Shown here in pieces: positions 11,136 to 63,857 of a stretch of 64,000 nucleotides of DNA; positions within the stretch are counted from its first letter, which is position 1, and every line of letters starts with the position of its first letter. The notes beneath the pieces were generated by a model. It was not told where the DNA came from, did not search any database, and saw only the letters and a list, made by a program, of their open reading frames with translations. A program made the position numbers and the translations under genes. This DNA is from Yuukianura sp. NJ FZ-2021 (Eukaryota): assembly GCA_046563655.1 (NCBI GenBank), contig CM102287.1, positions 8,680,001-8,744,000 on the forward strand, written 5' to 3'.

Positions 11136-12982
11136 TTATTCATCGAGACAGATTGTCCGAACGAGAACTTCAGTGACCGAGTAGGGATCACAATTTGAAC
11201 TGGGTCGACGATCTTCCAAGTAGCCCTTCCTCTCTTCAGCAACTGATCGTGGAATACGGATACTGCAGCCACGGTTAGCAACGCCAGCAGAAAAGTCATG
11301 AATTGACGACGTCTCGTGGTGGCCGGTCAGACGACGTTCGTTGTCTTTTCCTTGTTTTGGATCGTAGGCCTTGATATGACGAAGATGGTGTCGGGACAAC
11401 TTGTCAATTGCTTTTTCAATGTCCAAGATTCCGTTTTCTTCTCGCATGGCCTGTAATCAAAGTGAACGAATCAGTAATAAGATGTCGGTCCGAATAACAC
11501 TTTTCGGGCCAAAAATTTTTTTCGGTCCGAATAACTTTTTCGGTCCGAATCAAAACGGCGAGGACAAGAACAATGGAAACTCACCTTGGTTGAGAAGTTT
11601 GTGTGGCATCCAGCACCGTTCCAGTCACCTGGAATTGGTTTGGGGTCCAAGGAAACGTTGACTCCGAAGTCTTCAGCTACACGGTGCAGAATGTACCGAG
11701 AGATCCACAGTTCGTCGCCCATGCTGATTCCTTCTGATGGTCCAATTTGGTACTCCCACTGAGCCGGCATCACCTCGGCATTGGTTCCGCAAATGTTGAG
11801 TCCAGCGTAGAGGCATGCGCGGTAATGTGATTCGACGACATCACGGCCGAAGACCTTGCTTGCGCCGACTCCGCAGTAGTACGGTCCCTGTGGTCCTGGA
11901 AACCCGTTCTTGGGCCATCCGAATGGATGCATGTCTTGGTCCAGCAGGGAGTATTCCTGTTCCATGCCAAACCATGGGACTTGGTCCTTGGCTTTGATCA
12001 TGGCGTCTAAGCAACTGTGACGGTTGTTAGTTTCTGAAAGTCAATACAAAATCATTAGTTACTCCGTAGTATGTACTTCGGCAGCATGTACTGCCAGTAT
12101 TCTGAACTTTGAGCTCACCTGTTGGCTTCTTGTTGTACTTGTAGGTATCGCAGAGAACGAGCTTGTTGTTTCCAAGCAAAAATGGATCTTTGTACATAGC
12201 TACTGGGTACAAATAGGTGTCCGAATTGGCTCCCTCTGCCTGATAAGTTGAGCTTCCATCGTAGTTCCACACTGGCAAATCTGCAATTTCGAAAAAAAAA
12301 GTTATGACCTTTCGACCTCTGACGCAACTTTACGAAATTGTTTGTGTTCCGCTAGTTTTGCATTTTTGAAAAGCTCGCTCTATGAAATTGCAAAAATCCT
12401 GGAACAAATTTTGCACGCACGATTCCAGGAATTGGCAAACCATTTATTTACATACGTTATTCGCATCAATTCGCGCAAATTTCACACCTATGCGTTCCAC
12501 GACGCCATTTTTTGTTTGCAAAATTGTTTCATCCGAGTAGACGTTCTTTGTTAGTTGACATTGTAGCTTTGTAGAAGCCAATTTGCAAAAATATTTGCAA
12601 ATTTCATTAGCTATGTTTTGCAAATCGAAGGTCATTAGCACTTATTTGTAAGTCGAGCCAATGACACCGCTCGAGTTTACAGAAAAGTTCAGCAATCAAG
12701 GTACGCTAAAGTTTGCATAGTTTATGGGTGGGAGTTTGCAAAATGAAATTGAAAAAATTTGCAATTTGCAAAAATGATGCAAAATTTTTGCAAAGATGAG
12801 ACTTATCAGTATTATTTACCATCTGCCTTCTTGGGAATGTAGTTGACTGTCCTAGTTTTGCAGCGAACGTATTCCCCTGTTCCGTCAATCCACACGTACG
12901 TAGCTTGACAAATGTTGTCTTCAATTGGAAGGCTCAAGTAGCGATCCAGGACTGCCTTGTTCGTGTAAATATTTGGCATCAT
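11136..12982 (-). CDS. GS: Glutamine synthetase (type II), 4 coding exons
   Basis: [59 protein letters not shown] and [10 protein letters not shown] motifs. Confidence 0.97.
11484..11551. repeat. Short degenerate tandem repeat in the last GS intron
   Basis: tcggtccgaat occurs three times plus one variant, separated by T tracts. Confidence 0.6.
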
Positions 12983-15900
12983 CTTGACTCTGCAAATCTG
13001 GAAACATAAAAAAAGTTGTTCAAAATCTTTGTTCAAACAGTTTTTTCAAAAAACTAATACGCCAATGAATCCAGAACAATCCAGCCTTACATCACGGTCC
13101 ATTTCCCTCCTATGCTCAACTTTTTTCAAAACCTTTGTTCTTGTTCTAAAAATAGGCTTTGACTTTTTAGAAAAACCTAATAAGTCAACAGGAACTGACT
13201 CAAACCAGCTCCACACGTCATGACCTCGTCAAAACCACGTTCAAAATTTCAGTATTGTCAACAACCTCCTTTCTTCCTATCTCAAACCACCAAAATTTTG
13301 AAAAAATCTGGACTGCTAGCGGTCAAAAAACCGCAGCTAGCGTGATTCTATTGCTCAACTTTTTTTTTGCAAACTTGAAACACTTTCAGGCCAATTCCGC
13401 CCGTAATCAACAAAGATTAAGGTTGTTGTTGAAATTGGCAAATCAAGTTAATGTCGTTACCATGAGGATTCTCTAGCTGCGACAACTTGCCACTTTCAAG
13501 TGAACCCACTTGACCTTGCCATCATCCTACAAGAACATATCTACTTTTTAACAATTTTTTGCAAACTCAACTTTGCAAAAAATTGTTAAATCAAACAAAA
13601 GACGAGTGTTTTGCCACTTTTGTTAAGGATGCGCAGTATAGTAGAGTGGCACGACATGTTTTTCCATTGTTCCCACACACGCCATAATTATTTTAATCAT
13701 TTTGATTTTTTGTTTAAAAAGAGAAAAATGAAAACGCGTTGTCAATTAAAAAGTGTCTACAGCTAGATGGTATTGAGCTACTTACAGAAACAGAGGAGCT
13801 CTGGTTCGAATCAACCTTAGATGAAACCTTAATTGTCTTTTTCCTGACTGTTTTAGGCTAAACCAGTTGTTAGGTTTAACTTTTAGCCTAACGAATTGAG
13901 ACACAGGAGACTACGTGACAGGATCCAGATCCAAAACAGGTTTTAAATTGATTGTTTCCTGATTAATGCTTGAATTTTATGGGAAAGGAAAGTGGAATGA
14001 GGATGACGAATGAGAAGATCAAAAGAAGTTGACCTTCGAAAGCACTTTAAAACACGATTTGGCAAAATTCTAGTTCTAAAATTTATGCAATTCTTGCAAG
14101 TTTTCAATTTCAACCAATCCCTAAGCGTCTGTGCCACACCCCCAACAAATTGCCAAAGTCGTACCACCAAAGTCGCCCTTTTGCTAATTTTCAATAGTTT
14201 AGTTATGTATAAAATCCAAAATTCACGAATTTCGCGACGCAATTTATAATCTAATGAAAAAAATCTTCGAAAAAATCGTGAAAAAACTTTAGAACAAAAA
14301 CTGATTTTTATCCTTGACCTTGAAACGAGAAGAAAAAATCAAGGTCAAGGCAAAAGTGTAACTCAAATCTTCGAAGATTTGAAATCTTCTTAACAAAATC
14401 TTCCGTTTTTGTCTGTTACCACCCGACCTTAACTTTTTACCTTTTTTTTAAATTTTGTAAAATTCAAAATTTTAAATTTCGTTTATGACAATGCTTCCCC
14501 TCTTTTATAAAATCCAAGATGGAATCAACTTCTATGAGACGCGTAACTTTAACGTAATCCAAAATCCTGAGCTTGCTTAATTTCAAAATTTTGAAATTGT
14601 TTTTAAAAAATGTGTTTTCCTTACCAGTAGACTTGAAATGAAATGACACTAAAAATTTCAACTTCTTGTTTGCTGAAGTTGACGATGAGACCAGGACGAT
14701 GGCCAGGAAATGACAGGGAAGAGGATAGTATGATGCCAATGGTTTTATACCAAAAAATCTAACTTGCTACTTGCTTTTTTTCCTTTTAGGTTTAACATTT
14801 AGCCTGCAGTGTTGCATAGACTGGGCTTGGAATTTAGTATTTCCAACATACAAAAGCTTCAGATTGAAGTAATTCCCTTGCAAATTGCTCCAGGACAGGA
14901 GGGGCAGTTGCCTATGGCTAAAAAATGTCCATGATTTCATGTCCATGTTCCATGTATTCCTTGTGCCTCTCCAGTCGATGAATATTGCATGGAAACCTAC
15001 TAACTTTTGTATAAAAAATAAGTCAACTCGAAACCAATTTGCGTCAATTCAAGCTAAACTAGCTACATCCTCCTTGCTAGACATCGACAAACACAAAAGA
15101 TCTTGGACAAGAGACTGCGTCTCGACGAAGCGACTGAAATGTTTTTTTTAGGCATTTCCATACTTTGATGTGAGTTAGGTCAAAAAGTTTCAAAATTTTG
15201 AAAAATTCAAATTGAAAATCCATTTTTCTATGATTTTTTGTCGATTTTTAACAGCCTTTCAGGTCGTGACCTTTGGAAGCCCTGAGTTCCTATTTTGGGA
15301 AAAATCGAAAAGTTCTTTGACCTTGAAAGTTGGATTGGAACTAAACCCTAAGCTTATTGTGTAAAAGATTAAAGGTGTGATAAAAGTTATTGGAATTGTG
15401 TTGACAAACAACTTTATTGCAGAAACATTTTTTGCAAATTACAATTTCGCAACTGCAATGACTTGCAAATTCGTTACGCTTAATAATAGCCAATTTCCTA
15501 AGTCCAAAAGACGCATCTTCAGTACATCTCCACGCGCAGTGTGTAGCAAGTTGTGCAAATAGTATTGATTTTTGCACAACATGACTTTTCTTGCTTGGTT
15601 TTGACTTGTGAAGCTCTGTGGCGAAAAGTGTCTATCACTTTTCATTAGAACATCCACTCGAAACCTGTCACCTAATCCACTTTAGCACAAAAGTACCTAA
15701 ATCCAACAACTTTTTGATAAGCAGCGTCACTAAAGTTGTCGAAAACTCTTTTTTTGTCAAAATTTTTAGTACTCGGGCTGAAGTAGTGGTTTTCATAAGC
15801 TCGTAGCTTTCCTCAGGCTATTTCAGAGTTTATGGTGTCTAAAAATACGATTTTCCTTTGTTTCGTTTCTTTTTTTAAAAATACATTATAGTTTTTGAAA

Positions 15901-19696: not shown

Positions 19697-22163
19697 ATGA
19701 GTGTTTCTAATCCTAAAACTTTTCTAATAGTTTCCGTTTTAGTTGTAGTTGTAGCCGTAAGTTTACAAATTGTTCAAAAACTTCGGGATTTGGAGTTTGA
19801 TTTTTTTTTCGAAACTAGGAGAGAAATCCTCTTTTTTTTCTGATTTTTTTTCTTTAAATTTCAGTGCTGTCTGGTGCAAGCGTTTGATGACCAAGAACTG
19901 GCCAACATCGGTGCTTCTGGACCGCATCGCTCGGGCCTTCCGGTTCCGGAAGTCGGTAAATCAGCGCGTCCAGTCCCTGTACCCCTAATTGACCCAGCCC
20001 AGTTTCAGCCACCTCCGGGAACTCCAGAAAACGTTCCAGGGGCAGCGCCAATACAACCAGAAGCGCCAATTCAACCAGCATCACAGTCAACTGGAGCAGG
20101 AAGTGACAAATCTCAACCAGCAGTAGTGTCACAGCCTCAGCAAGTAGCAGCGGGACAATCAAATCCAAAACAAAATGGCGCTGCAGTTCCGCCTCAACCA
20201 CAACCTGTAACTTCGAACGGAGGCCAGCAATATGGTGGCGTTTCACAATCTATTCCGCCTGTCCCACCAGTTCAAGCGCCACCGCTGGACGGAAACGCTC
20301 GTTTCTTGGATATTTTGGCCAATGCCAAATGCTTGGGACAAAGTTTTGGACAACTTCATCCACAATTTCCAACATACAGCCAAAGTTGTTCCAATGAACC
20401 GAAAACGGTAGGTTGGAAAATAAAATTTCGGAAAATCTTGCAAAAAATTTCAAACAAAACCAAAAATTTGCAATTTTCTACAATTTTGACTTTATTTCTT
20501 TACAGTGTCGCTCGGTTTGCATGTTCGTGAAACTCGGATTGGTAGTCAATACTTTAATTTTTAAATATTTAAAAAACAATTTCAAAATAGTTTTTGAAAA
20601 CGAATTCGTAACTAATGAAATTTCTGCTAGATTGAAGAGAAAGGAGGAATCAGCGTCCCAAATTTTCTGAAATTTTGTGAAAATGTTTTCACTGGTCCAC
20701 TTGGGCAATTGGGAATTGAATTTCAGGGAGCCTCCAAATCTTGTCTAGCAAAACACAACTACCCGGGTAACATCGATGTTCAGGGAGGATGTCCAGCCTT
20801 CCAGCCTGTCATGAACTGCCTAACGGATTCCCTGCGACAGGTTAACCGATGAAACGATTTGACCAGTATTATTGTAAAAACTAGTTTTCTGCTTGGTTTT
20901 TCCTAGATTTGCAAGCTGGGCGAACCAAAAAAAGATGGCGGAAGAGGAAACAGCGGTGAACGTGGTAGCAATCCTAATGGTGTCTACAACGGTCAGCCAC
21001 GTCAAGGCTACAACGATGGAAAACCTGACAAGAAGGAATCAGGAGAACGCAAAGGTGGACTCTTTGGATATCAAGGTCAAGACAATCGTCGTAAAGAGTC
21101 CGGAGAACGTCAGCAACCTCCAAATCAAGGTTACCAGGCTCCACCTCCGCAACAAAATCAAGGCTCTGCATATCAGCGTCCACCGCCAACTCCAGCGCCA
21201 GCATATCAAGCTCCTCCTCCTCCGTCGAATCAGGCTCCACCAAAACCACCTCCGACGTCTTACCAAGCTCCACCAAATCCACCTCCGTCGACCCACCAGG
21301 CTCCACCAAATCCACCTCCGTCGTCCTACCAGGCTCCACCAAATCCACCTCCGTCGACCCACCAGGCTCCACCAAAACCACCTCAGTCGTCTTACCAAGC
21401 TCCACCAAATCCACCTCCGTCGTCTTACCAACCTGCACCAACTCCACCTCCGTCATACCAAGCCCTCCCGTCTCCACCTTCGTCATACCAAGCCCCTCCA
21501 GCTACCCCGCCATCATATCAAGCTCCACCGAACCCTCCTCAGTCATACCAGGGTCCCCAAAATCCACCTCCGCCATACCAAGCCCCTCCAACTGCTCCAC
21601 CATCATACCAAGCACCACCAAATCCACCTTCGTCGTACCAAGCACCGCCAACGCCTGCGCCTTCTCCAGGATACCAAGCACCTTCAGTTCCAAATGCAGG
21701 TTATTCGCTTCCCCCGCAAGGCCAAGGGTATCAACAACAGCCTCCGCAGGTACAACCATACCAACCACCTCCGCAGAATGCAGGATACCAGCAACCAGCT
21801 TCCCAAGGTCAATCGTACCAACAACCTCTGGTAAGTCAACCATTACCTTCCGGACAGGGATACCAAGCACCATCAGCTGACGCTGGTTTCGGATACCTGC
21901 AACCAGAAGGAATGATGCAGGGATACCAACAACCTCAGCAAGGTTACAACATTCCAGCGGCAGGGTATTCTCCAGACGTAGGTTCTGCTTTTGGAACTGG
22001 GCAAGGAGTAGGATTGACCAACAACCAACAAGCAACTGGCTTCGGCCAGCCCAGTATGCAAGGTTACAACTTTCCGATGGCAGCCTACAACCAGAACCCG
22101 CAAGTTCAGGGATACAACCCGCCAATGCAGGGTTTTAACCCTGCAGGTCAAGGGTACAACTGA
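19697..22163 (+). CDS. Secreted ~700-aa protein: Pro/Gln-rich region, OBP-like Cys domain and extensin-like repeats (5 exons)
   Basis: Exons 19697-19756, 19865-20407, 20506-20541, 20631-20840 and 20907-22163, all phase 0. Signal peptide; C-X25-C-X3-C-X44-C-X15-C-X8-C spacing; YQAPPNPPPSS repeats. Confidence 0.8.
21200..21660 (+). repeat. Coding tandem repeat with a ~33-bp (11-aa) unit
   Basis: caagctccaccaaatccacctccgtcgtcttac-like units encoding [Y/H]QAPP[N/K]PPPS[S/T]. Confidence 0.9.
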
Positions 22164-29885: not shown

Positions 29886-31590
29886 TTAAACAGAATTTGA
29901 TTTTGATACGTACCTCCGCCGTCTTTTGCGTGGTCGTTGCCGGATGGTTGTTGCCGGCTGGAAATGCTTAGCGCGAGGGCGGGTACGCATTGGATATCTA
30001 CGCGTGAAGTTGGCTGCGACCGAGTTCAACTGAGCGGAGCTTTCATCCTTAGTAGTGGCAGTATTCTGGGAAAATGCTGTTGGTTTCAAAGATGGTGGTG
30101 GTACTGGTGCATGAACTTGCGGAATAGATGGTGCTGGTACTACTGTTGGCGGAGGAGCTTTTGGCTGTACTGACTCGTGTGTTGGAGATGTAGAAATAAC
30201 TGCACTGGGCATGGGCTTTGACTCAGTTTCAATTGTAGTTGGTTTGGTGGCTCCATTAATCGTGGGATTCGTAACACCATTGGTGGGTTTCTGGATAGTT
30301 TGAAGAGGGGGATTGACCGTAACGGGTGGTGGTGGTGGCGGAGCATTGTCCAACCTTGGATATTCAATTCCTGACAATAATGACGCATGTCCAGAGGCAG
30401 AACTCCTTGCAAATTCGTCCAGTTGTCCATTCATTGGACGCTCGTTGGTAAAGTACGTCGGGTATTTCCGGTAGAAGTGACGAAATCCACCTTGCAGAAT
30501 CTTAACTTTCCCTTTGTATTTCGTGTTAGAATCCCACTAATATTGACAAAAGAAAATTGAAAAAGTTCTTTATTCAATTTTTCGGATGAAAATGGAAGAT
30601 TTTAAACCTTACTTGTGTGATAGAGTCGTAGAGTACAAATAACGGTAAAGTGGAGTCCCTCCGTTCGAAGCTGTTCGACCAGTCATAGAGAATGATTAGG
30701 TCAAAGGTTGCACGTATGTTCCAAAGTTCCAGCGATTCGACGCTGGATTGCTTCAACTTCGTCGTGAGCGAATCTATAGTGATTCTGGAAGAATCAAAGA
30801 ACAGAAACCTGAACAGTATTTGTACAAATCCTTGGGCAGTAGTAAAAGCTTACCCTTTCACAAGAAACACATTGGGAATGCAAATGGCATCGTGGTGGAC
30901 GGGGTGCGAACTCTTAAAATCCACTGGAGAACGAGTGTCAATGAGCAGAAACCGGGTTGATTTTTGGTCCATTAAGGTTTTGAGTTCCTCTGCAGTGATG
31001 TTAACATCGTGATGACGATGAGATAGAATGGCAACGTTGACAACGGCTGGCCGTGCTTTAGGTCGAAGTACATCGTTGCCCTTGACGTTGCGAGTTGCAT
31101 CCTGGAGTTTCAGTTTCTCTTCCTTCACTTTGGCTTCTGCTGCTTCACGTTCTTTAGCCATCGCATATCGCTTGTCCAGACGTTCTGCCAACCCCTCTAC
31201 AAGTTGAACGGCGACTTTTGATTTGGATGAAAACAGGGCCGTACGATCCGGTTGTTTATAATACTTCAAACTAAGGACGAATCTCATGTATAGAATGTAC
31301 GACAGTTCATCGTCCATTTCCATCCAAAAGGCTTTCTTGGCCGAGTCGTATAATTTGTTCAGCATACCCGAGGTCATCCTGAAAAGTGAAAATGTAAAAT
31401 TGAACTTTATTGAATAAACTTCACTTTAGCTTCAACATGCGGTGAAGTACTATAAGAACTGAAGTAGAACTTACGTGACTGGATCCGTGTTTTTGATTTG
31501 GTCACCTGGATCCACCTCACTATTAAGTTCTGCGACGCTGGAAGCCTTGTAAAGTTCACGCAGTTTCTCATTCTGCCCCGCGACTGGCAT
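29886..31590 (-). CDS. Truncated USP8 paralog (N-terminal MIT-like, rhodanese and Pro-rich regions; no catalytic domain); possibly a pseudogene
   Basis: MPVAGQNEKLRELYKASSVAEL…DDELSYILYMRF…FLLIDTRS…; similar to the copy at 54006-57453 up to about 30045. The frame then diverges and stops, with no Cys or His box. The exact 3' end is uncertain. Confidence 0.75.
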
Positions 31591-40447: not shown

Positions 40448-41063
40448 CAATCTAAGCAATTAGCAACTAAATAGCTGCCCTACCCAGTACCCATTCGCTA
40501 ATCAATTCGCTACTAACTAACTTTCTTGTGATTTGTGCTGTACTGTCAAGCGGTGATAATACTCCGGGATTTGCTTTATTCGTTCCTTTGCTCTACTTTT
40601 TTGTTGATTTCTCTGCAATTATTGGATTTGATTTATTAATTTATTTTGGTTTTTGTTTGTAGATCTTCTACCATAGACAATTGAGTGATGCCTTTGAGAG
40701 TGTTGAAAACCCAAAAAATCAACTAAAACTGATTGATTCCCTTATTTTGGGACTAATTCGTTTGTTTTGGTACAAATTACGTACAATTTACTAAATTCTT
40801 GATGTTTCTGCCAATTCTTCTGTACTTCTTCCAAAGTGAAAACAGGCAGAAAAGAAACATTGCTTTTCTGAGCCAAATAATTCCGTCAATTGTTAACTTT
40901 GTAAAAACAAATTCTGAAATTCTCCTTCGTATAGTCTTTGCGGGCAAGAAATAAAGCAAATAAATCAAAATTAATTCAATATCAAAGTATCGTACTGTAA
41001 TTCTTGACAAATTCAAATTTTTTTTATACTCAAAATTTTCAGTTGAGAATTTCTATAGTTTTG

Positions 41064-43009
41064 TTAATGTTCGAAATGGACTTGTTTCCTGGAACAAAAA
41101 TTTTGAACTTGCGAAGCGTAATCGAATTTTCGACTTTCTCCATCTCTAGCTCTGTATACTGCCCACCGATCGTAAATCGGAATTGAAGTGTCAGCTAAAT
41201 GCCAAAGATGTCCGAACTCCCGCTGACTTCTTAGCTGTACTTGAAACTGTTCATGGAATTCATAAGCACTGGAACCGACCTCGCCAAGGTCAATGCCCAT
41301 TCGCTCTATTTCTGGAGTTACACGCAAACGTAACGCTGGAACCAAGTTCATCGCACCCAGCAGTATCAGTGTTACAACAAAACTCCAAGCGAATCCAGCC
41401 GCAGTGTCGACCAATTGATGAAGCTGAGGTGAAAAAAAACTTAGACAACTTTTTTTCGAAAATGTATTCAAAATGTTTCCTTGTTTTTTATGTTACGATT
41501 TGCATGTAGTTTCCTTCCAGCCATCCACCTTCAATCGCTGGAGCGTATTTCTTTTGTGCAAAAATTCCAGTTAGCAAGCAGCCCAGGATTCCTCCAACTC
41601 CGTGAACAGCAAAAACGTCCACCGGATCGTCCAATCTTGAGCGTTCCATTAACTTCGTCGAAGCGTTGCAGACAAGAGCGCCCAAACTTCCGAAAACTAG
41701 ACTGCGTAATGAAACAAATCAAAAATTTCAAAAAAAAAAATTCAAAAAACATCGTTAGACCTATTGATTCCCATTTTTTTTTGTTTTCTACCTGCTTGCA
41801 GGACTGACGAATCCGCAAGCCGGCGTGATACAAACCAGCCCTGCGACTGCGCCAGAACAAAATCCAAATGCTGACCATTTTCCTTTATGCAGGAAATCCA
41901 GAAAAGTCCACACGATTCCGCCAATAGCTCCTGATAGATTTGTCGTCAGACAAGCATTTGTTGCTTGTAAGTTCGGAGCGAGTGCTGGATATAAGTATTT
42001 CAAAATTTCGAAAATATTTTCAAAATTTTGAAAGTGAAACGGACCTGAACCACCGTTGAAGCCAAACCAGCCGAACCAAAGTATTCCAGTACCGAGGACA
42101 GTATACGTCAAGTTGTGCTGTTTGATTTGGTCACAACAGGAACACGGTGCTCGTTGTCTGGGTCCAAGCAGCAAAGCATACGCCAACGACGCTGCGCCGC
42201 TACTAACATTTGTAAAACTTAGATTTTCAAAAAATTATCATAATTTCAAAAAAATTTTAACTCAGAGAGCAAATCTGAGTACCTAACATGTACTGGTGTT
42301 CCTCCGGCAAAGTCCAAACCTATGTTAAAATTAAAGTTTACAATTAAAAACAGTACATAATTAACTTTTTTAATTTCAGAACACTTACTACCTCCCAGTT
42401 TAGCTGACCATCCATTGGGATTCCAGGTCCAGCAGGCCAAGAAATCATAGACAAGAGTCGTCCAAGCAAAGATGAACAGCGTCGTGGGTAGAAACCGAGC
42501 TCGTTCTGCGCCTGCTCCAAGCATCAGCGCTGGAGTAATCGCTGCAAACATTCCTTGGTACAAACAGAACAGCAGCGCTGGAATTTTGGACGATCCGACT
42601 GACGGTTGATCAAAAACATCTTGGAGAAACAAATGCTGGAAGTCTCCTATTAGGAAATTCGCTGTCGAGCTGAACGTCAGTGAGTACCCAATTAAAAACC
42701 ACTGAAATTCAGATTTCAAAATTTCGAAAAATTGTCAAATTTTCAAATTTGTTACGCTTAACTTACTTGAAACGAAACAACAGCCATAGACCACAGACAG
42801 AGTAGCATGACGCTGAGAGCGTTCTTGGCCCGGATCATTCCGGCATAGAAGAATCCAAGCCCAGGAATCATCAGCCACACCAGTGCAGTGCAAATTAGAA
42901 TGTAACTGATGTCGCCGGGGTCAAAGGTCACATAGCCTTCTGGATTCTCGGTGGTCGCCATTTCTTCTGATGAGTCAGGGTCTGAACCCGGAAAAACTAT
43001 GTTCGCCAT
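41064..43009 (-). CDS. Ammonium transporter of fungal MEP (Amt2/MEP) type, 7 coding exons
   Basis: [98 protein letters not shown] and ERMGID motifs. Six phase-compatible GT-AG introns. Confidence 0.95.
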
Positions 43010-43365
43010 TGGTCAACAAGAGTGAAAGTGAAAGTTTACTTTCTCCGAGAACTTTAAACACTTCTTCAGCGAAAAATTTAGATCAAAAGTGAAAGTTTGC
43101 TTTCTTGGACAACAAATTACAAAAATTTTACCTCAAGCGACAAATTTAGACCAAAAGTGAAAGTTAAGCGACAAGCACTTGACATCATGTCGTGCTCTTC
43201 CTAATTTGAATGTCACTTTTTCCCTCATCGCTGTCACCTCTTTGACCCATTTCCGCTGATAGGGTGAAAACTTTTATTGACCAAGAAGAAACCGTTTTGT
43301 ACGCAGTAGCACTTAAATCAAAATTTATCTAAATTCTAAATTTCTAAAAAATCAAAATCAACTGT

Positions 43366-43668
43366 TTACACTGGAGGTTTTACAGCCGCGTCTGTTTCAG
43401 GCACTCCAGTTGGATTTGCCACTGGTACAGCGCCTTCTTGTAACGGAGGAAACTCTAACACGATGATGAGTAGACCAATCAGACAGACCAGCGTAAACGC
43501 AAGGATCATTCCATTGCAAATCCAGAAGTCTCTTTCGAAGGCCTTCCGCGGAGGCTGGAAGTGCAGCAATTCCGTGTGCTGTTGCGGAGATGGATACTGC
43601 CGGATGACTACAACTGTCTCACCGTCAATGTCACCCGAATTCGGTTTTTTCGTCATCTTCACACTCAT
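43366..43668 (-). CDS. Small single-TM protein of unknown function
   Basis: Uninterrupted ~100-aa ORF from ATG 43668 with TM segment MILAFTLVCLIGLLIIVL. GC content is higher than in the flanks. Confidence 0.55.
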   Translation of the reverse strand: MSVKMTKKPNSGDIDGETVVVIRQYPSPQQHTELLHFQPPRKAFERDFWICNGMILAFTLVCLIGLLIIVLEFPPLQEGAVPVANPTGVPETDAAVKPPV

Positions 43669-50051: not shown

Positions 50052-52935
50052 TCAAAAGTCTTTGTCCCATCCAGAATTGTCGTCCGGAAGTTCGCCAATT
50101 TCTATTTCGAATTTGTCAAAGTGCGAAGTGTCTTGGGGGCCCTTGAGACGCGGTTGGATAGGGGCCTTGATCCGACATTCCCTTAGTCCTTCCCAATCAA
50201 ATCCTCCAAACCATCTATGTGCAATGACTTCACGGACTCCATTTTGAGCTCCAAGTCGTTCTCCTGGATACTGGCGACATAAACGTCGAATCAGAGAAAT
50301 ACTGCCACGAGCCAGTTCTTTTGGAAACCGGACACATTCAATTCCTTTGAGAATTTGGTTGTACGTTTCCAGTGGGTCAGTTTCGGTAGTCGTTGCTCCA
50401 CTGCACATCTCCACCGACATTGGTCCCCACGGCGGTCTACAATCAAAAATGCGAAACAATTTAAAAAAAAAACTTTAGAAAATTGAGATCCGATTTGATC
50501 TTACAGTCCTGAGAGAAGTTCAAATAGGAGGACACCGAGAGCCCAAAAATCTACAGCACGATCATGACCTCTCTTCAAAATCGTTTCCGGTGCAACGTAC
50601 TCTGGTGTTCTAAACACAAAATTTAAATTCTGAACAAATGATCCAAGCGTTTTAGAGAAAAATCAAATTGTACATGAAAAATTACCCACAGAATGTCCAT
50701 GTTCTCTCGCCACTTGGAACGACTTTGCTAAATCCAAAATCAACCTGAAACACAGTCAACCTCAAAGTTAAACTCGACAAACAGCAGAAACTGATGGAAA
50801 TTAATCCAAAAACTTACCAATTTGACGTATCCGTTATTAGCAAGCATGAGATTCTCGGGTTTCAAGTCACGGTAAATGACATCTTTGGAATGAAGATACT
50901 CCAGAGCTAGTAAAACACAACCAAGTGTAAACCGAGCTTCATCTTCATCAAAGCGACACTTTTCACGCAAAAGTGTCCAAACTTCGCCACCCAAACAAGC
51001 TTCCATCAAAAGGTAAACACACTTGGAATCCTTAAGGGTTTTGTGGAGCCTATACACACAAAAAACACCCTTCTTTTAAACATTTAAACTTTTTGAACTT
51101 TTTTTTTAAATGAAAACTTGACCTCTCTGACCTTACTATGAACGGCGAATTCACTGAGGCCAAAATACTTTTTTCTGCAAAGACGTGTTCCTTTTGTTGT
51201 GTTTCGAGAATCTGAACTTTTGGAAGACACTTCAAAGCAAAGACAAGATTTGGCTCACCTCCGACCTAACAAAATCGGATTCAATTTCCAAAAATTTAAA
51301 CACGGAACTTTTTCAAAATCGAAATAGAGGTTACCTGCACAAGTTCTACTCTGCCGAATCCACCAACACCCAAAGTCGTAACGACCTCCAAATCGTCCAA
51401 GGTCAAACTTGAAATTAAATTCTCCACAGTTTGTTCTTCTCCAGCGTCCTTGGCCTTCTTCAAAGGCGACATTTCACAAGCATCAGATTCTGCATCATCG
51501 TTGACTTGAAAATCGACATTTTTCTTTTGAAATTGATTCAGCGTTCCAATCAGTTTATGAAACGACTCTCTGTCTAATGTGAGACAGGAAACTCCAGGGG
51601 AAAGTGCAATGACACTGGCCGTTCGACGCTCCGTTTCCCTCAGTAAAGCTTTTTCTCCAAAATAGTCTCCTCTTCCAAGTTGTCGTAAAATGTCGCCACC
51701 ACCTCCATGCTTTCCTTCTTTTCTTACTTCAACTCGACCTTGACTGATGATGTAAAAGATGTCACCAACTGCACCTTCTTTGATTATCGTCGCGCCAGTT
51801 GAGAAGTGAGCCTAGAACAATCGAAAGAACAAAAAACTTAGGCAAAATTTCAACAAAGTAATTCAAAAAATCCTAAAGTGTAGAACATAACCGGTGAAAG
51901 ATGGTCGGCAATTCGTGAAAGCAGGAGCGGTTCCAGCCCTTTCAGGAGTGGAACTGACTTGAGAAAGGCAAGGCGGTCCTCCATCTTGCGCATTCCGACT
52001 TTGACCATCACTTGTTGAAAAACACGACGTTCCAAGGCCCATATCCGGCAAATTGTAGTGGCTGAAAGAAAGAGTAAAATTAATTCAACAAAATTGACAT
52101 AATGGACCACAGATTTATACAAAAGAGACGAAAGTAAATTGTACCTTTAACAGTTGCTGTTCTTTTGCAGTTGTAGAGTAGTGCCAACTCTCCAAATGCT
52201 TTGCCAGGACCAAGAGAGCCAAGAGATGCTTCATCTTGCAACACTTCCAGCTCACCTTCACCCGACACGTACAAATGGCTACCTGAAATTTAAAACAACA
52301 AAAATGAACATGTAATTCATAAAACATTTTGAAACTTGAAAAATAGTTGCAGTTTTTTGAAAATGCTTACCAACTTCTCCTTCTTTGATGATTGTTTGAC
52401 CTGGTTCATACGAAAGTGGAAACATGAAATCAACCAAGTCTCTCAGTTGCTCCGAATCCAAATGTCGCAGAAACGAGTTGTCACGAATGGCACACCGCAG
52501 CAATTGGCGCGTACGGAAATCTTTGACATGTCGCTCAGCTTGTGGTCCATCTTCCCAGCTCTCTCCAGAAACTCCGCACTTTTTGATCAGACCTCCAAGA
52601 AATCCTGAAATTCCAGACACGCTTGGATGGTGAGACGTCGCCACGGACGGAATTCTTTTCAGATTTGATCTTTCTAAAACAGACTAACAAAAAACAATTA
52701 GAATTCCCCGGACTCAAAAGTTAATTCAAGGTTGGAATTGCCGTACCCTCAGCTTGTGAATTTCTCGTTTGAGTCTTCCGATTTCCGTTTCTCGTTCTGT
52801 TAAAGTTTCCTTGAGCTGTTTCAGTTCAGCATCCATGTTGGCAACAGCGCTGTCCAAATTCGACTGGCAACTCCAGGACGTTGATTGCTCATTTTTATAT
52901 CTCCAGAGCCTGGAGCTTTCCAATCGCCGTGACAT
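50052..52935 (-). CDS. PKG: cGMP-dependent protein kinase (isozyme-1/Pkg21D-like)
   Basis: Coiled coil (REIHKLRSVL), KKCGVSGES pseudosubstrate, two cNMP-binding domains ([22 protein letters not shown]), kinase YRDLKPEN and C-terminal SGWDKDF. The start codon is tentative. Confidence 0.93.
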
Positions 52936-54005: not shown

Positions 54006-57000
54006 TCAATCATCCTCTCGAGCCTGGTAGAACAAAATGTACGCAGCAGTGGAGATAATTTCTCGATGAGAAATGAGTGAAGTGTCAGCATCGTCAAACT
54101 TGGTCCAAGATCTGTAACGAGTACAAGTATGTTCAAAAACTGTTCTAAAAAATCAACATTTTCTAAAAATGTAGAACAAAAGAGCACTCTTACTCTGGAT
54201 TGCGACAAAAAGCAGTGTAGTGTCCACCTTCCATGGATCCGTAGTGGTTAGACACAGCATACAACTGGTATCGTGTACTTGTCGTAGTAGTGGGCCCTTT
54301 GACACGATCCGTAATGTCCAAATTATCAAGAGGGAACGAAACTTTGGTAATTTTCTTCCGATAGTTTCCGTTGTGCTCTTCCGTGTTGAAAAATCTACAG
54401 TCACAGTTAAGTTATTAATAATTGAGATTATCAGATTGAATTTAAAATTAAATTAGTGTTAACATTACAATTAAGTTTTGAAACCTTAGCTTACCTTTGA
54501 AGGTGGATCAGCAAATAGTGAGGCATGCGCCACAGCTGGGTGTATTTTTCGGTTTGTCCAAAAGTCTTACACTGGCTACACTCCATGTCAACTTTTTCCG
54601 TTTGTGTGTAAAGATCAAGACATTTCTTGAACAAAAACAAAAGGTCAATGGTCGAATTGTACAAAAGGACAAAGGTAACAGACTTCATAGGAATAAAGGT
54701 TATGTTGGACACGACTTACCTCAAGTGCACAACTCCCATCGACCGTTACGTCTGGAAGTGGGATTGAGAGGAAGTAGAAGGGCTCAAAAGTTACTGACGT
54801 CTTGAAGCACTTCTTGCATCGGATTGTTGACGTTTGTTCTCCAGCAAAAAGTTTCGAAATGACGGAGTTGTTTACACTCTGGAAAAAAAAAACTTATTAA
54901 AAATGCACATTCAACCAGAAATCTTGTCCCGGAATTACCAGATAATCATCCCGAAACACATCATAAGCAGCATCGATTGGAACATTTTCGTTCTTCTGTT
55001 CTTGTAGTTTGTGCCGTCTTCTAGGAGCCTGAAAAAAATCATAAGTTAATTAAAACTTACTGACTTTTACTATTTTCAAATGAATGTTCTACCTTGTTGA
55101 GTTCCTCGTGCATCCAATCGAGCAGAAATGTCAAGAGTTCATGAGAGTCATGCTGTCCTTTCCCAGCAAAAGATGGATTGTGTTTGCCAATGATTCTCTT
55201 CAACTCTTCGGGTGCATAGGAACGCACTCCCCGACTGAGTTGCTGAATCGTCATTGCCACTTCTTTCGTCACCTCTCCACATTGGTCAAAACCTCGCCTA
55301 CATTTTATCAAAACAACTTCTTCAAAAACATAACTTTTCGGAATAAAAGCAAAATTTTCCGGTTTTCACTTACCGTTGAAGGTCAGAGGTCAAAAAGTCA
55401 GCCAGATCTCGAGTATGTGACAGGCATTGGATTATTGAGTTCATGTAGCAACTGTTTCCCAGATTTTTTAGTCCAGTTCGGTGGTGTCGTGTCTAAATTC
55501 ACAAAAAAAACTTAAAAAAAATTCAACCCCAAACGAAAGTCTTTTCTTTTTCTTAAACTTACGCTTGAGACTGGCACAATCGGGAAATCTCTCCTCACTT
55601 GAGGTTTCTGCATGCGACTGTACGTGGGAAGGTCATCCGGCTATAAAAAAAATAATAAAAATATATAAACCATTCAGAAACATTTTAACAATTTATGATT
55701 TTAACAATATCAACAAAATGTGATATACTTACCCCTTGAATCATGTTCAAGTTTGGATTAGATTGGGATCGTTTCAAAGACGAATTGCTCCTCTGCTCTC
55801 CCTCAGTCTTCAATTTTTCCGTCTTTATTTCCTTACTTGGGCTGTCCATGACTCCATTCACTTCTGGTTTTCCTTGCGAACTGATTCCAATGGAATCACC
55901 ATCCTTAGTGGTGGCAGTATTCTGGGAAAATGCTGCTGGTTTCAAAGAAGATGGTGGTGGTACTGGTGCATGAACTTGCGGAATAGATGGTGCTGGTGCT
56001 GGAGTAGCTTTTGGTTGCACCGGCTCGTGTTCTGGAGATGTAGAAGTAGAAGGAACTGCACTGGGCGCGGACTTCGACTCGGCGTCAATTGTAGTAAGAT
56101 GAGTTGGTTTGGTGGCTCGATTAATCGTGGGATTCGTAACAGCATTGGTGGGTTTCTGGATTGTAGGGGCAGGGACATGTTCGCCGTTTGTGATTGGCTG
56201 AAGTGGTGGTTTGACCGTAACGGGCGATGGTGGTGGCGGAGCGTTGTCCAAGCTTGGATATTCAATTCCTGACAATGACGCATGTCCCGAGGCAGAACTC
56301 TTTGCAAATTCGTCCAGTTGTCCATTTGTACACAAGTTGGTAAAGTACGTCGGGTACTTGCGGTAGAAGTGACGAAATCCACCTTGCAGAATCTTCAGTT
56401 TGCCTTTGTATTTGGTGTTAGGATCCCACTAATATTGACAAAAAAATCGTTTTGAAAACGTTTTTTCTCTTGCAGATGAAAATAAAGATTTGAAGTCTTA
56501 CTTGTGTGATAACGTCGTAGAGCACAAATAAAGGTAGAGTCGAATCTGAATCCCTCCGTTCGAAGCTGTTCGACCAGTCGTAAAGAATGATTAGGTCAAA
56601 GGTTGCACGTATGTTCCAAAGCTCCAGCGATTCGACGCTGGATTGCGTCAACTTCGTGGTAAGCGTATTCGCAGAGATTCTGGAAAGATGAAACCACAAA
56701 AACTTGAACAGTATTTGCACAAATACTTGAGCAGTACTAAAAGCTTACCCTTTTACAAGAAACACATTGGAAATGCAAATGGCATCGCGGTGGAGGGGGT
56801 GAGAACTCTTAAAATCCGCTGGAGAACGAGTGTCAATGAGCAGAAACCGGGTTGATTTCTGGTCCATTAGGGTTTTGAGTTCCTCCGGAGTGATTTCAAC
56901 TTCCTGATGAGTTGATGGAATGACACCGTTGACAATGGCTGGTCGTGCTTTAGGTCCGCTGCTCCTGTTGAAGTTGCGAGTAGCATCCTGGAGTTCCAGT

Positions 57001-57453
57001 TCTTTCACTTTGGCTTCTGCTGCTTCACACTCTTTAGCCATCGCATATCGCTTGGCCAGACGATCGGCCAACTCCTCAGCAAGTTGAATGGCGACTTTGG
57101 ACTTGGTAGCAAACTCGGAAGTACGATCCGGCTTCTTATAATGGTTCAAACTGAGCACGAATCTCATGTATAGAATGTACGCCAGCTCATCATCCTTGTC
57201 AATCCGAAAGGCTCTGCTGGCCGAGTCGTATAATTTGTTCAGCATACCCGAAGTCATTCTGAAAATGTGAAGTTGGACTTCAATAATTAAACTTTAGTTT
57301 AGTTTCAACATGAGCAAGTGCTATAAGTAAAACTTACGAGGCTGAATTCGTGTGTTTGATTTTGTCACCTGGATCCAGCTGACCATTAAGTTCTGACATA
57401 CTGGAAGCCAAGTAAAGTTTACGCAGTTTCTCATTGTCCCCTGCAACTGGCAT
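54006..57453 (-). CDS. USP8: Ubiquitin-specific protease 8-like, full length and divergent
   Basis: MIT-like N-terminus, rhodanese domain, [10 protein letters not shown] 14-3-3-type motif, Cys box [18 protein letters not shown], His box [14 protein letters not shown] and FDD…AYILFY. Confidence 0.9.
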
Positions 57454-62248: not shown

Positions 62249-63857
62249 ATGGTGGACAGTGAATTTCAGGCATTCGAACAAGTAAAGAAACAAAGGTTAA
62301 AGGTCACTAAAGAAGCCATTTTCGAACAGTCACCGCTCTACAAACACTGGAGATGGTTATTTCTTTCGCTAAGAGCTTTTGGAAGTTGTCCAATTTCTCA
62401 AAATTTGGAAAATTTTCAATTGAAATTTCGTTGTTTTTCGTGGACAACTTTGTACACACTGACTATTCACTTGCTTCGAATTTCATTTTCGGTTTGGTTC
62501 TTCAAGGACTGGGGAGCTATGCTTGGAGAAAGGTGCTATTCCAGGAGTTTTTTTTTTCAAAATGGTTTTTCAAAAATTTGAGTTTTTTTTGGGTTTTGAC
62601 AGATATAGCAATGGGAATCTGCTGGTTCAGTGGATTATTGGCAGTATGGGCTACACTATTCCGCTGCAACAAATTTGGGAAATCATTGCAAGTTGGGCAA
62701 CAGCTACCAAAATGGCGGCAATTGGAAACGAATGGATCCAATTCGATACAACGTTTCGCGAAGCTTTTGGAAAAACGTGTGCGCAGTACTATCGGCGCAC
62801 AAAATGGCGTAAATGTGTCTTATTCTTTATAGTCTTTGTTGTTGGTGGGCACGTCTGTAGCACCCGAGCCGAATTGTTCCAAGAAGAAAAATTCGGTAAT
62901 TTAAAAAAAGTTGTTTGTTGTCTATTATTGGATTTCTGCTATTTTAATATATTTTGTATAGGAAATTAACTTTTGTGTTTTTTTTTGTTACAGAGGTTTT
63001 GCATGTTTTGCGTATAATTCCTAGCTTCATGTTGATTGGTATCATGGTAGTTGAAGAAATTCGGATCCTCATGATGAACTTTACTTGTGCTGAGGGGTTT
63101 TACTACATACGGTCAGCCATAGAAGAACAGGTCAAAGGTCATGACCAAATTCTGACTCAAGTAGTGGTCAAGTGGACATCGATTGCCATGACATTACGAC
63201 GCAGTGTCCAACTGACTGGAGATATTCAGATGTACTTCCTCATTCCGGGATTTGTCCATATTGTTTTCATCCTCACTGGAGTTATTTTCATTTCAATTCA
63301 AACTGTGGTGGGGCAACATGCGACGGAAGACTTTATTTATATGGCCATCGCTGCAAGTTCCATGTTTGCCGGAGTGTTGCTAATAGTCAACATGGCAGAA
63401 GCTGTATCTCAGGAGGTACGTGTTCAAACAATGCCGCCCCTCTAGTATAACCTACAAGTTTGCTCCAGAAACTTAATCTTCATTTTAATTTGTTGCTGTT
63501 TTTGAATTTAGGAACAGCTTTTGGCTTCTGTGTTAATTGAATGTGACCCAGATATGTTTGACCTCAATGGAAAGATGGAAATAGCCAAGTTGATTGTAAC
63601 GCTTCAGCAAAATCCATCCAAGATATCCCTAGGTGGATACATTTCAGTGGAGAAAAGGCTGGTGACAAAGGTAATTCTATTTGACACAATTGGAAAATTG
63701 CGGTAAACTTTATTTGAAAGTGTTTTGAATGTTTTGTTGAATTTTGACTTTTAAGATGCTGACACATATCGTAGGCTATTTACTTCTTCTTATCCAGTTT
63801 GACCTCGCGTTCCACGTTAGAGACATTCCAAATTGTGGAAATGGAACTTCGTCGTAA
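62249..63857 (+). CDS. Gustatory receptor family protein (5 exons)
   Basis: Multiple TM segments; C-terminal ISLGGYISV…|MLTHIVGYLLLLIQF matches the GR TYxxxxxQF signature. The 3' introns are phase 0 and the frame is intact. Confidence 0.85.

What the first reader, a model, noticed from the sequence alone, without database searches (positions are those of the whole stretch)
41064..43009. Fungal MEP-type ammonium permease in an arthropod genome (candidate horizontal transfer)
Seen: an intact 7-exon transporter with host-like short AT-rich introns, lying between ordinary arthropod genes (Gpdh, serine protease, serpin). Both pore histidines (GGTPVH, FAVHG) and the C-terminal ExxGxD motif are retained. 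Known: animal ammonium transporters are normally Amt1-type or Rh. Strings such as [46 protein letters not shown] and GGWL are, from my recall, characteristic of fungal MEP permeases. Inference: a fungus-to-arthropod transfer that has been domesticated, giving the animal a high-affinity ammonium uptake or sensing route. A CSCC motif in the loop before HNLT looks lineage-specific.
Basis: partly seen in the sequence, partly recalled or inferred. Interest (0 to 1): 0.88.

Follow-up and report, generated by a model that had tools for sequence, protein, structure and literature searches.

The report
Fungal-type ammonium transporter in an arthropod
An animal genome, most likely an arthropod's, carries an intact ammonium transporter gene of the kind otherwise found in fungi, and its nearest relatives are in springtails and a fungus gnat, which points to gene transfer from a fungus.

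Summary
On the minus strand, 43009..41064, seven exons joined by six GT..AG introns (60-90 nt, GC 0.19-0.26) encode a 501/502-aa Amt/Mep/Rh protein (PF00909), with all named motifs present.

Its nearest proteins are "ammonium transporter 1(-like)" entries from Folsomia candida, Orchesella dallaii and Bradysia coprophila (59-62% identity). Mortierellomycota and other fungal Mep proteins follow at 54-58%.

In trees the five animal sequences form one clade (SH-aLRT 99; UFBoot/SH-aLRT 100/100). That clade sits inside the crown of fungal Meps (99; 100/99). Forcing fungi to be monophyletic without it is rejected (p-AU 0.007).

The gene looks resident and constrained:
- The flanks are animal genes.
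- Read depth matches the flanks in two studies.
- GC3 is like the neighbours', and 9 of 10 listed coding variants are synonymous.
- 89 of 95 family-invariant columns are kept.

So a fungus-derived Mep gene in soil arthropods is well supported. Its physiological role, its expression, the donor lineage, the host's identity and the number of transfers remain open. I found no report of it in the searched literature.

The parts
42767..43009 (-). Exon 1: ATG at 43009-43007, 81 codons, N-terminus and TM1 with FFY(55)AGMIR(60)AK; phase-0 donor GTAAGT
   Evidence: (PF00909 profile 2-46). An in-frame stop lies one codon upstream of the ATG (ORF 42758..43012).
42392..42701 (-). Exon 2: [10 protein letters not shown] ... 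CWTWNPNGW(179)SAKLG; ER motif (E147). The alternative donor would end the exon at 42389 and add one Ser.
   Evidence: profile 48-145; Candida Mep2 97 bits against AmtB/Amt-1 42 bits
42283..42319 (-). Exon 3 (37 nt): LD(187)FAGGTPVH(195)V, holding the conserved Asp and the first pore His
42045..42202 (-). Exon 4: SSGAASLAY..., the lineage-specific loop with CSCC (217-220), HNLT, WFGWFGF(245)NGGS(249)
   Evidence: (profile 160-211)
41792..41984 (-). Exon 5: LAPNLQ ... [29 protein letters not shown]
   Evidence: (profile 219-275)
41497..41701 (-). Exon 6: ...[10 protein letters not shown](347)GVGG (second pore His) ... FAQKKYA (clade-specific 4-column deletion follows) ... [11 protein letters not shown]
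   Evidence: (profile 278-346)
41064..41423 (-). Exon 7: TM11, the C-terminal region with E(422)RMGID (ExxGxD), then a ~64-residue unconserved tail and TAA at 41066-41064. A further intron in the tail cannot be excluded.
   Evidence: profile 349-399; aligns to Candida Mep2 381-434 only
41424..42766 (-). Span holding the six short AT-rich GT..AG introns: 42766-42702, 42391(42388)-42320, 42282-42203, 42044-41985, 41791-41702, 41496-41424. Introns 1 and 4 carry the palindromic word TTTCAAAATTTTGAAA, which is also found in other non-coding parts of the window.
   Evidence: 19 matches against 0.61 expected
43018..43170 (-). 5' flank with three spaced copies of a GTGAAAGT-containing word within about 160 nt of the ATG. 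A possible cis-element; untested.
   Evidence: direct-repeat families D5, D6

Best explanation
This is a nuclear gene of an animal, most likely an arthropod. It descends from a fungal Mep (MEP-clade Amt/Mep/Rh) ammonium transporter gene taken up by horizontal transfer. Since then it has gained host-type short introns and host-like composition, and it is kept under purifying selection.

It belongs to a small clade of such genes also present in the springtails Folsomia candida and Orchesella dallaii and the sciarid fly Bradysia coprophila. A common origin for all of them is the simplest reading.

Mechanism, inferred from the family: a trimer of 11-helix subunits. NH4+ docks at an outer Trp/Ser site (W179, S249) behind a Phe gate (F245 is one of its two residues). 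It is deprotonated, and NH3 passes through a hydrophobic pore lined by the twin histidines (H195, H347), which also relay the proton. The C-terminal ExxGxD segment (E422-D427) and the TM1 tyrosine (Y55) set the open or closed state.

The fungal Npr1/autoinhibitory switch is not recognisable, so control in the animal must differ.

The physiological role is inferred, not shown: an extra ammonium route, either uptake for assimilation or export, useful to an animal living in decaying, fungus-rich, ammonium-variable substrate.
For: SHOWN

Family and type:
- PF00909 on all six larger exons, collinear.
- Exon 2 scores 97 bits against Candida/yeast Mep2 structures and 42 bits against AmtB/Amt-1. Exon 7 matches only Mep2.
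- The Folsomia relative scores 401 bits (Mep2), 284 (Amt-1), 262 (AmtB) and 32 (Rh50).

Nearest relatives:
- With exon 2 as query, of 120 listed hits the best is Bradysia (70%). Every other named row is a fungus.
- With Bradysia as query, the top hits are Folsomia 71%, Orchesella 72%, Folsomia-b 67%, then Mortierellomycota 62-67%. All other named rows are fungi.
- The joined target is 60.3/61.8/59.3% identical to Folsomia/Bradysia/Orchesella and 54-58% to fungi.

Trees:
- The five animal rows form one clade: SH-aLRT 99 and 100/100.
- That clade lies inside a branch holding Dikarya, Mucoro-, Mortierello-, Glomeromycota and most Zoopagomycota, excluding chytrids, Paraphysoderma, Sanchytrium, Smittium, Gefionella and prokaryotes: 99 and 100/99.
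- AU test: fungi held together against animals plus prokaryotes costs 35.0 lnL, p-AU 0.0071.

Common origin: 8 alignment columns have one state in all 5 animal rows that is absent from 11 fungi, including a 4-column deletion.

Residence in the animal genome:
- Neighbours are an animal-type glutamine synthetase, V-ATPase a, Gpdh, trypsin, PKG and Neuralized.
- Contigs from runs of two studies cover the gene and its flanks at like depth (X1 154-167 against 162-220; X4 3.2-4.3 against 2.6-6.2). One 1216-nt contig runs from exon 7 into the downstream spacer.
- GC3 is 0.447, inside the neighbours' 0.35-0.545.
- The introns carry a word over-represented in the window's non-coding DNA.

Constraint:
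- 89 of 95 columns invariant in 15 relatives are kept, and the 6 changes are conservative.
- All checked functional motifs are present.
- 9 of the 10 coding variants listed by the read tool are synonymous.

Background: animals are described as having AMT and Rh genes, fungi only MEP, and the sampled insects a single AMT (PMC4814505, passages read).
Against: - No transcript evidence could be obtained, so splicing and expression are inferred.
- No transport assay exists for any member of the animal clade.
- The sister group within fungi is unresolved: 93 and 83 SH-aLRT for a grouping with Mortierellomycota plus Entomophthora/Ramicandelaber under the mixture model, a polytomy under LG+G4.
- The careful mixture-model search on 46 rows did not finish (742 s). 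The key supports therefore come from quick mixture trees plus one careful LG+G4 tree.
- The target sits on a long branch (1.15 against 0.15-0.5 for its clade mates).
- The deep fungal and Gefionella rows are also long, and the AU test shares the model's weaknesses there.
- Holozoan protists and other animals were represented only by what the protein searches returned. No animal AMT or Rh sequence was in the tree.
- The list of read variants is truncated ('288 more not shown'), so 9 of 10 is a sample.
- The laid contigs are short. None bridges from the gene to Gpdh or to the protease.
- The host is not identified beyond 'arthropod-like'.
Confidence: 0.8

Rival explanations
1. Several independent transfers. 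Each animal lineage (this host, springtails, the sciarid) took the gene separately from one unsampled fungal lineage that already had the clade's deletion and signature residues.
For: The distribution is patchy: 4 animal proteins among 120 listed of 7990 scored. All carriers named by the databases are soil or fungus-associated animals. The order inside the animal clade is unresolved, and springtail monophyly is neither shown nor rejected (p-AU 0.37).
Against: No fungal or environmental protein fell inside the animal clade. The 5 unnamed environmental rows put in the 76-row tree all sat in fungal clades. None of the first 60 of 150 representatives of 50% clusters exceeded 56% identity to the target. 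Eight shared derived columns and clade support of 99-100 are explained more simply by one entry into animals.
Confidence: 0.15
2. Old vertical inheritance. A MEP-clade gene of the opisthokont ancestor survived in a few arthropods and was lost in nearly all other animals.
For: The animal sequences are monophyletic. The exact fungal sister is unresolved. A non-fungal eukaryote (Gefionella, transcriptome-derived) also has a related gene.
Against: The animal clade lies inside the crown of fungal Meps, with chytrids, Paraphysoderma, Sanchytrium and Gefionella outside (99; 100/99). Fungal monophyly without it is rejected (p-AU 0.007). It is 54-58% identical to Mucoromycota and Dikarya proteins but 40-49% to the full-length chytrid-grade representatives. 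This reading would also need very many losses, and the review passages describe animals as having only AMT and Rh.
Confidence: 0.04
3. Assembly artefact. Fungal contaminant DNA was joined to animal DNA.
For: The organism probably lives with fungi. No single laid contig spans from the gene to a neighbouring animal gene.
Against: Depth of the gene equals the flanks in four runs from two studies, and one contig runs from exon 7 888 nt into the spacer. The six introns are unlike the CDS in composition (GC 0.19-0.26 against 0.48) and share a word with the window's other non-coding DNA. GC3 lies within the neighbours' range. The nearest proteins are from three other animal assemblies on contigs of 2.6-15 Mb, not from any fungus.
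Confidence: 0.02
4. A decaying relic. The gene is integrated but no longer functional, or is drifting.
For: The branch is about three times longer than those of its clade mates. The tail is unconserved and there is an odd Cys-rich loop. No expression data are available.
Against: The frame is open through seven exons with canonical splice sites. 89 of 95 invariant columns and all pore and gate motifs are kept. 9 of 10 listed coding variants are synonymous. The host's own PKG is also on a long branch (0.95 against a median of 0.21), so the fast rate may belong to the lineage rather than to this gene.
Confidence: 0.04

Closest known systems
Fungal Mep2 ammonium transporters/transceptors (S. cerevisiae Mep2, PDB 5AEX; C. 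albicans Mep2, PDB 5AEZ/5AF1)
   Same: They are the best solved relatives by sequence. Shared features: twin-His as His/His, the TM1 Tyr, RxK, ER, the Trp/Ser site, the conserved Asp and ExxGxD (features as described in PMC4852598, passages read).
   Different: The host is an animal and the gene has six short introns. The autoinhibitory region with the Npr1 phosphoserine (Candida 446-453) is not aligned; the match ends near residue 434. There is a clade-specific 4-column deletion after FAQKKYA, and a target-specific CSCC loop.
Database proteins 'ammonium transporter 1(-like)' of Bradysia coprophila (P0001), Folsomia candida (P0121, P0158) and Orchesella dallaii (P0122)
   Same: They form one clade with the target (99-100 support) and share its derived columns. 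All come from large animal contigs.
   Different: They are only 59-62% identical to the target, which branches first or is unresolved among them and evolves faster. Their names suggest the animal AMT1 type, which the trees contradict. I found no paper describing them.
Animal AMT-clade transporters (e.g. mosquito AgAmt/AeAmt1) and Rh proteins
   Same: Same superfamily (PF00909) and the same substrate.
   Different: They belong to different clades. Animals are described as having AMT and Rh, and fungi only MEP (PMC4814505). Rh50 structures score 32 bits against 401 for Mep2 with the Folsomia relative. No AMT-clade animal protein appeared among the listed hits. None was placed in my trees.
Land-plant AMT2 (MEP clade in plants, attributed to horizontal transfer)
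   Same: A precedent for a MEP-clade gene entering a eukaryote lineage that already had AMT genes (PMC4814505).
   Different: Different recipient, and per that paper's passages a different (not fungal) history. Not tested here.
Canonical terpene synthase genes of Sciaridae, Collembola and acariform mites (PMC11665903)
   Same: A foreign-type gene shows the same odd taxon pattern: sciarid flies plus springtails plus other soil microarthropods. The authors interpret it as horizontal transfer, including transfer within arthropods (passages read).
   Different: An unrelated protein family. Their nearest donors for Sciaridae are mites. Here the sciarid gene groups with springtail genes, and that order is unresolved.

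Membership tests
Amt/Mep/Rh superfamily (Pfam PF00909) | Significant, full-length, collinear match to the family profile | tested here: met
   Six exons have E-values from 1e-5 to 2.8e-18, each above the 23.2-bit cut-off, and cover profile positions 2-399 of 399 in order.
Amt/Mep/Rh superfamily (Pfam PF00909) | Twin-His pore motif, conserved Asp, outer Trp/Ser site, Phe of the gate, and ExxGxD in the C-terminal region | tested here: met
   H195, H347, D187, W179, S249, F245 and E422-D427 were located by motif and by alignment to 15 relatives and to Candida Mep2. The first Phe of the gate was not numbered because no reference numbering was at hand. The residue roles are from PMC4852598 and partly recalled.
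Amt/Mep/Rh superfamily (Pfam PF00909) | Eleven transmembrane helices, homotrimer | tested here: inconclusive
   A crude hydropathy scan gave 11 windows above threshold, but some overlap and TM5/TM6 fall below it. The fold is inferred from full-length alignment to Mep2. No structure or complex prediction was run, because the joined protein could not be handed to those tools.
MEP clade (as opposed to AMT clade or Rh) | Groups with fungal Mep and prokaryotic AmtB-type proteins rather than with AMT1-type or Rh | tested here: met
   The nearest named proteins are fungal Meps at 54-58% and prokaryotic AmtB-type proteins at 45% or less. The PDB ranking is Mep2 > Amt-1 > AmtB >> Rh50. Caveat: no AMT-clade or Rh sequence was in the trees. 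The placement against AMT rests on similarity ranking and on the clade definitions in PMC4814505.
Fungal Mep2 subtype (transceptor type) | His (not Glu) at the first twin-His position, and the TM1 Tyr that bonds to His2 | tested here: met
   H195 in GGTPVH and Y55 in FFYAG. That Mep1/3 types carry Glu at the first position is recalled; one Basidiobolus row shows E there.
Fungal Mep2 subtype (transceptor type) | Autoinhibitory region with the Npr1 phosphoserine about 30 residues after ExxGxD | tested here: not met
   The exon 7 alignment to Candida Mep2 stops at about residue 434, and the AI region is at 446-453. The tail does not align with any relative. The gene should therefore not be filed as a Mep2-type regulated transceptor.
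Horizontally acquired gene resident in an animal genome | Phylogenetic nesting inside the donor group, with the alternative rejected | tested here: met
   99; 100/99; p-AU 0.0071.
Horizontally acquired gene resident in an animal genome | Physical linkage to native genes, host-like introns and composition, same depth as the flanks | tested here: met
   Linkage beyond about 0.9 kb rests on the window assembly itself, because the laid contigs are short.
Horizontally acquired gene resident in an animal genome | Transcription and correct splicing in the host | not testable with these tools
It needs RNA reads of this organism.

The most novel reading that the evidence does not exclude
A fungal Mep gene entered one soil arthropod once. 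It then moved between distantly related soil microarthropods (springtails, sciarid flies and this host) by animal-to-animal transfer, as has been proposed for terpene synthases. In these animals it provides something no other animal is known to have: a MEP-type route for taking up environmental or gut ammonium for assimilation by glutamine synthetase.
Probability: 0.2. Interest if true: 0.85.

Novelty: new member of a known kind. Interest (0 to 1): 0.62.

Why it matters
Reviews of the family state that animals carry AMT and Rh genes and that MEP genes in eukaryotes belong to fungi (and to plants as AMT2). An intact, constrained MEP gene in at least four animal genomes changes that picture.

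It also adds a membrane transporter for a core nutrient or waste molecule to the list of fungal genes kept by soil arthropods.

The taxon pattern (springtails, a fungus gnat and this host) repeats the one reported for terpene synthases. It may therefore help test whether genes pass between soil arthropods.

The function is directly testable by yeast mep1-3 complementation and by oocyte electrophysiology. The loss of the fungal Npr1 switch raises the question of how an animal controls such a channel.

Tried and rejected
- Whole-genome search of the window's own assembly: no genome is held. I could not ask whether the host also has AMT or Rh genes or more Mep copies.
- RNA evidence: no RNA holder is listed for the 8-kb stretch. 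Expression and splice junctions could not be examined.
- Laid contigs are short and break at low-complexity intron repeats. None spans from the gene to Gpdh or to the protease. The many 'joints' listed lie in those repeats and were not interpreted.
- Earlier findings of this scan: nothing by place, sequence or words.
- Host identification. The PKG exon search gave only 40-52% identity to anything. Summed tblastn over 120 PKG proteins did not discriminate between taxa. The Atlas look-up of the glutamine synthetase exon gave uninformative taxa. In the PKG FastTree the window's gene joins a second Pseudolycoriella PKG, which the tool flags as a long-branch join; I do not rely on it.
- An alignment of Bradysia with the exon fragments alone misaligned (A2) and was dropped. 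An alignment holding fragments could not seed a locus search. A3, made of full-length proteins, was used instead.
- The careful mixture-model tree on 46 rows was unfinished after 742 s. It was replaced by quick mixture trees and a careful LG+G4 tree.
- Representative search: it found no additional lineage close to the animal clade. It did supply chytrid-grade fungi and Gefionella for the tree.
- Viral contigs: 77 pattern matches, none a relative.
- Metagenome contigs: 79 loci, all 50% identity or less and prokaryote-like, so there were no intron-bearing fungal or arthropod genes for an intron-position comparison.
- Intron positions in the fungal, Bradysia or springtail genes could not be compared, because no tool gave their genomic DNA.
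- Literature: six searches found no report of a MEP-type gene in arthropods. The two held supplementary files of the Folsomia genome paper contain no 'ammonium', 'PF00909' or 'Mortierella'. Supplements that are not held, and subscription papers such as large insect HGT catalogues, were not seen and may list it.
- The hydropathy count of helices was too crude to use.
Full report
THE OBSERVATION

Reading 40700-43400 on both strands shows the gene on the minus strand. A script that joined the exons by coordinates gives seven exons from the ATG at 43009 to the TAA at 41066-41064. The six introns are all GT..AG, 60-90 nt long, with GC 0.19-0.26. The CDS has GC 0.48 and the window 0.39. A stop lies one codon upstream of the ATG.

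Each of the six larger exons hits Pfam PF00909 above its cut-off, in collinear order, and together they cover profile positions 2-399 of 399.

One detail changes. With the GTAAGT donor, exon 2 ends at 42389 and the protein has a Ser that none of 15 aligned relatives has. The donor 3 nt upstream (GTAGTA, exon end 42392) removes it and gives 501 aa. I could not decide between them without RNA.

WHAT IT RESEMBLES

With exon 2 as query against about 5.8 billion proteins, the best of 120 listed hits is a Bradysia coprophila protein (70%). Every other named row is a fungus.

With that Bradysia protein as query, 7990 proteins were scored and 120 listed. The next hits are Folsomia candida (71%), Orchesella dallaii (72%) and a second Folsomia protein (67%). 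Mortierellomycota follow at 62-67% and then other early-diverging fungi. No other animal appears.

The joined target is 60.3, 61.8 and 59.3% identical to the Folsomia, Bradysia and Orchesella proteins, and 54-58% to fungal ones. Prokaryotic AmtB-type genes reach at most 45%.

Against solved structures:
- Exon 2 scores 97 bits with Candida/yeast Mep2 and 42 with Amt-1/AmtB.
- Exon 7 matches only Mep2.
- The Folsomia relative scores 401, 284, 262 and 32 bits for Mep2, Amt-1, AmtB and Rh50.

An exhaustive profile search of 1.84 billion cluster representatives listed its best 150. Of the 60 I compared, none exceeds 56% identity to the target. Those above 50% are fragments that are 72-75% identical to a Dikarya Mep. 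Ten of the top representatives were named. They are Rhizopus, Circinella, Paraphysoderma, Phlyctochytrium, Chytriomyces, Sanchytrium, Smittium, a Meira/fern-labelled cluster, an unnamed JGI cluster and the malawimonad Gefionella.

PHYLOGENY

I built four trees.
- 76 rows: target, 4 animal proteins, 56 named fungal proteins, 5 unnamed environmental proteins and 10 prokaryotic outgroups. Quick LG+C20.
- 46 rows: 30 rows of the 76 dropped for speed. Quick tree; the careful search did not finish in 742 s.
- 41 rows: 35 of the 76 plus the six deep lineages named. Quick mixture model.
- The same 41 rows, careful LG+G4 with ultrafast bootstrap.

In all four, the target and the four animal proteins form one clade (SH-aLRT 99, 99, 99; 100/100).

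In the 41-row trees this clade lies inside a branch that holds Dikarya, Mucoromycotina, Mortierellomycota, Glomeromycotina, Basidiobolus, Entomophthora and Ramicandelaber. That branch excludes chytrids, Paraphysoderma, Sanchytrium, Smittium, Gefionella and the prokaryotes (99; 100/99).

An AU test was set up as 29 fungal rows held together against the 5 animal and 6 prokaryotic rows, with Gefionella free. The constrained tree is 35.0 log-likelihood units worse, p-AU 0.0071. The gene's ancestor was therefore a fungal Mep.

The fungal sister is not resolved. A grouping with Mortierellomycota plus Entomophthora/Ramicandelaber gets 83-93 under the mixture model and collapses under LG+G4.

Inside the animal clade the mixture trees put the target first (94-96) and Bradysia among springtails (84-94). 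LG+G4 leaves a polytomy, and holding the three springtail rows together is not rejected (p-AU 0.37).

Eight alignment columns have a single state in all five animal rows that is absent from 11 fungi. They include a 4-column deletion after FAQKKYA. This favours one entry into animals.

IS IT REALLY IN AN ANIMAL GENOME?

Pfam on 45 ORF pieces of the window found:
- an RRM protein
- glutamine synthetase
- five pieces of V-ATPase subunit a
- two USP8-dimer pieces
- Gpdh
- trypsin
- a cNMP-binding and kinase gene (PKG)
- Neuralized
- a weak 7tm_7 hit

The serpin is weak. The glutamine synthetase is of the animal type: human and dog 281 bits, Drosophila 267, yeast 238, maize 228.

The PKG is only 40-52% identical to any listed relative. 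In a FastTree of 38 rows it falls inside an arthropod-only clade (local support 99) on a long branch. I therefore accept 'arthropod' only coarsely and cannot name the lineage.

Five public DNA runs from two studies hold the stretch, and four were laid. Contig depths in the gene match the flanks: X1 154-167 against 162-220, X2 42-57 against 26-60, X4 3.2-4.3 against 2.6-6.2. One X2 contig of 1216 nt runs from exon 7 into the downstream spacer.

GC3 of the CDS (0.447) is inside the range of ten neighbouring coding pieces (0.35-0.545). Introns 1 and 4 carry the palindromic word TTTCAAAATTTTGAAA, which occurs 19 times in the window against 0.61 expected, always in non-coding places. Contamination or a chimeric join is therefore unlikely. 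The laid contigs themselves do not reach the neighbouring genes.

IS IT FUNCTIONAL?

- Of 95 columns invariant in 15 relatives, 89 are kept. The six changes are conservative.
- Y55, R60xK62, E147-R, W179, D187, H195, F245, S249, H347 and E422xxGxD427 are all in place. Their roles are as described for Mep2 (PMC4852598, passages read).
- Of the 10 read variants that the tool listed within the CDS, 9 are third-position synonymous and one is Q226P in the variable loop. The list is truncated.
- The C-terminal alignment to Candida Mep2 ends near residue 434, before the autoinhibitory region and Npr1 site at 446-453.
- The last ~64 residues align with nothing, and the CSCC loop is unique to the target.

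MECHANISM

Shown: family, clade, intact pore and gate residues, and purifying selection.

Inferred from the family: a trimeric 11-helix transporter that binds NH4+ outside, strips the proton and passes NH3 along the twin-His pore, with the C-terminal region gating it.

Inferred from the missing Npr1 module: regulation differs from that in fungi.

Speculative: the role in the animal. I lean to an added ammonium uptake or handling route in the gut or excretory epithelia of an animal of decaying, fungus-rich substrate. Export is equally compatible with the sequence.

COMPARISON WITH WHAT IS KNOWN

The review passages I read state that fungi have only MEP genes, that animals have AMT and Rh, and that the sampled insects have one AMT (PMC4814505). 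Six literature searches, and the held supplements of the Folsomia genome paper, gave no report of a MEP-type gene in arthropods. Subscription papers and unheld supplements were not seen.

A PNAS paper reports canonical terpene synthases in Sciaridae, Collembola and acariform mites and proposes transfer within arthropods (PMC11665903, passages). The taxon pattern here is similar.

VERDICT

The finding is real, and its main inference stands: a fungal Mep gene resident in an arthropod-like genome. The gene is a new member of known kinds, namely the Mep family and fungus-to-arthropod transfer. It belongs to a small, apparently undescribed animal clade. Function, expression, donor, host identity and the number of transfers remain open.

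Noticed in passing
window 11139-13045 (-): A glutamine synthetase gene of the animal type lies about 28 kb from the Mep gene. PDB scores for one exon: human/dog 281 bits, Drosophila 267, yeast 238. Both act on ammonium, and the proximity is probably chance.
   Followed up: partly
window 43018-43170: Three spaced copies of a word containing GTGAAAGT lie within about 160 nt upstream of the Mep start codon (direct-repeat families D5/D6). Possibly a cis-regulatory element.
   Followed up: no
window, 19 sites including 14581, 15188, 36452, 41998, 42018, 42714, 45391: The 16-nt palindromic word TTTCAAAATTTTGAAA (one mismatch allowed) occurs 19 times against 0.61 expected, always in non-coding DNA. 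Laid contigs break and show high summed depth at these places, so it is probably a genome-wide short repeat.
   Followed up: partly
window 30853-31425 (-) and 56748-57293 (-): Two separate ORF pieces with a USP8 dimerisation domain (E 2.9e-4 and 5e-7), about 26 kb apart on the same strand. Possibly a duplicated gene.
   Followed up: no
window 50055-52836 (-): The cGMP-dependent protein kinase gene is unusually divergent: 40-52% identity to all 120 listed relatives, and a branch of 0.95 against a median of 0.21. Either this is a fast-evolving host lineage or a divergent paralogue.
   Followed up: partly
window 20907-22160 (+): A 418-codon open frame rich in Pro/Gln with many YQAPPNPPPS-like repeats and no Pfam match. 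The overlapping frames on both strands are also open, as expected for a simple repeat.
   Followed up: no
window 62463-62966 (+): A weak match to the 7tm_7 chemosensory (gustatory) receptor family (E 3e-4, below the cut-off), which would fit an arthropod host.
   Followed up: no
proteins P0001, P0121, P0122, P0158 (not in the window): The Bradysia protein sits among springtail proteins in the mixture-model trees (84-94, not significant). The database names 'ammonium transporter 1(-like)' suggest the animal AMT1 type, but these are MEP-clade proteins.
   Followed up: partly
cluster of P0359: A representative labelled as the fern Adiantum nelumboides shares a 90% cluster with the basidiomycete Meira miltonrushii. 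This probably reflects fungal DNA in the fern assembly.
   Followed up: no
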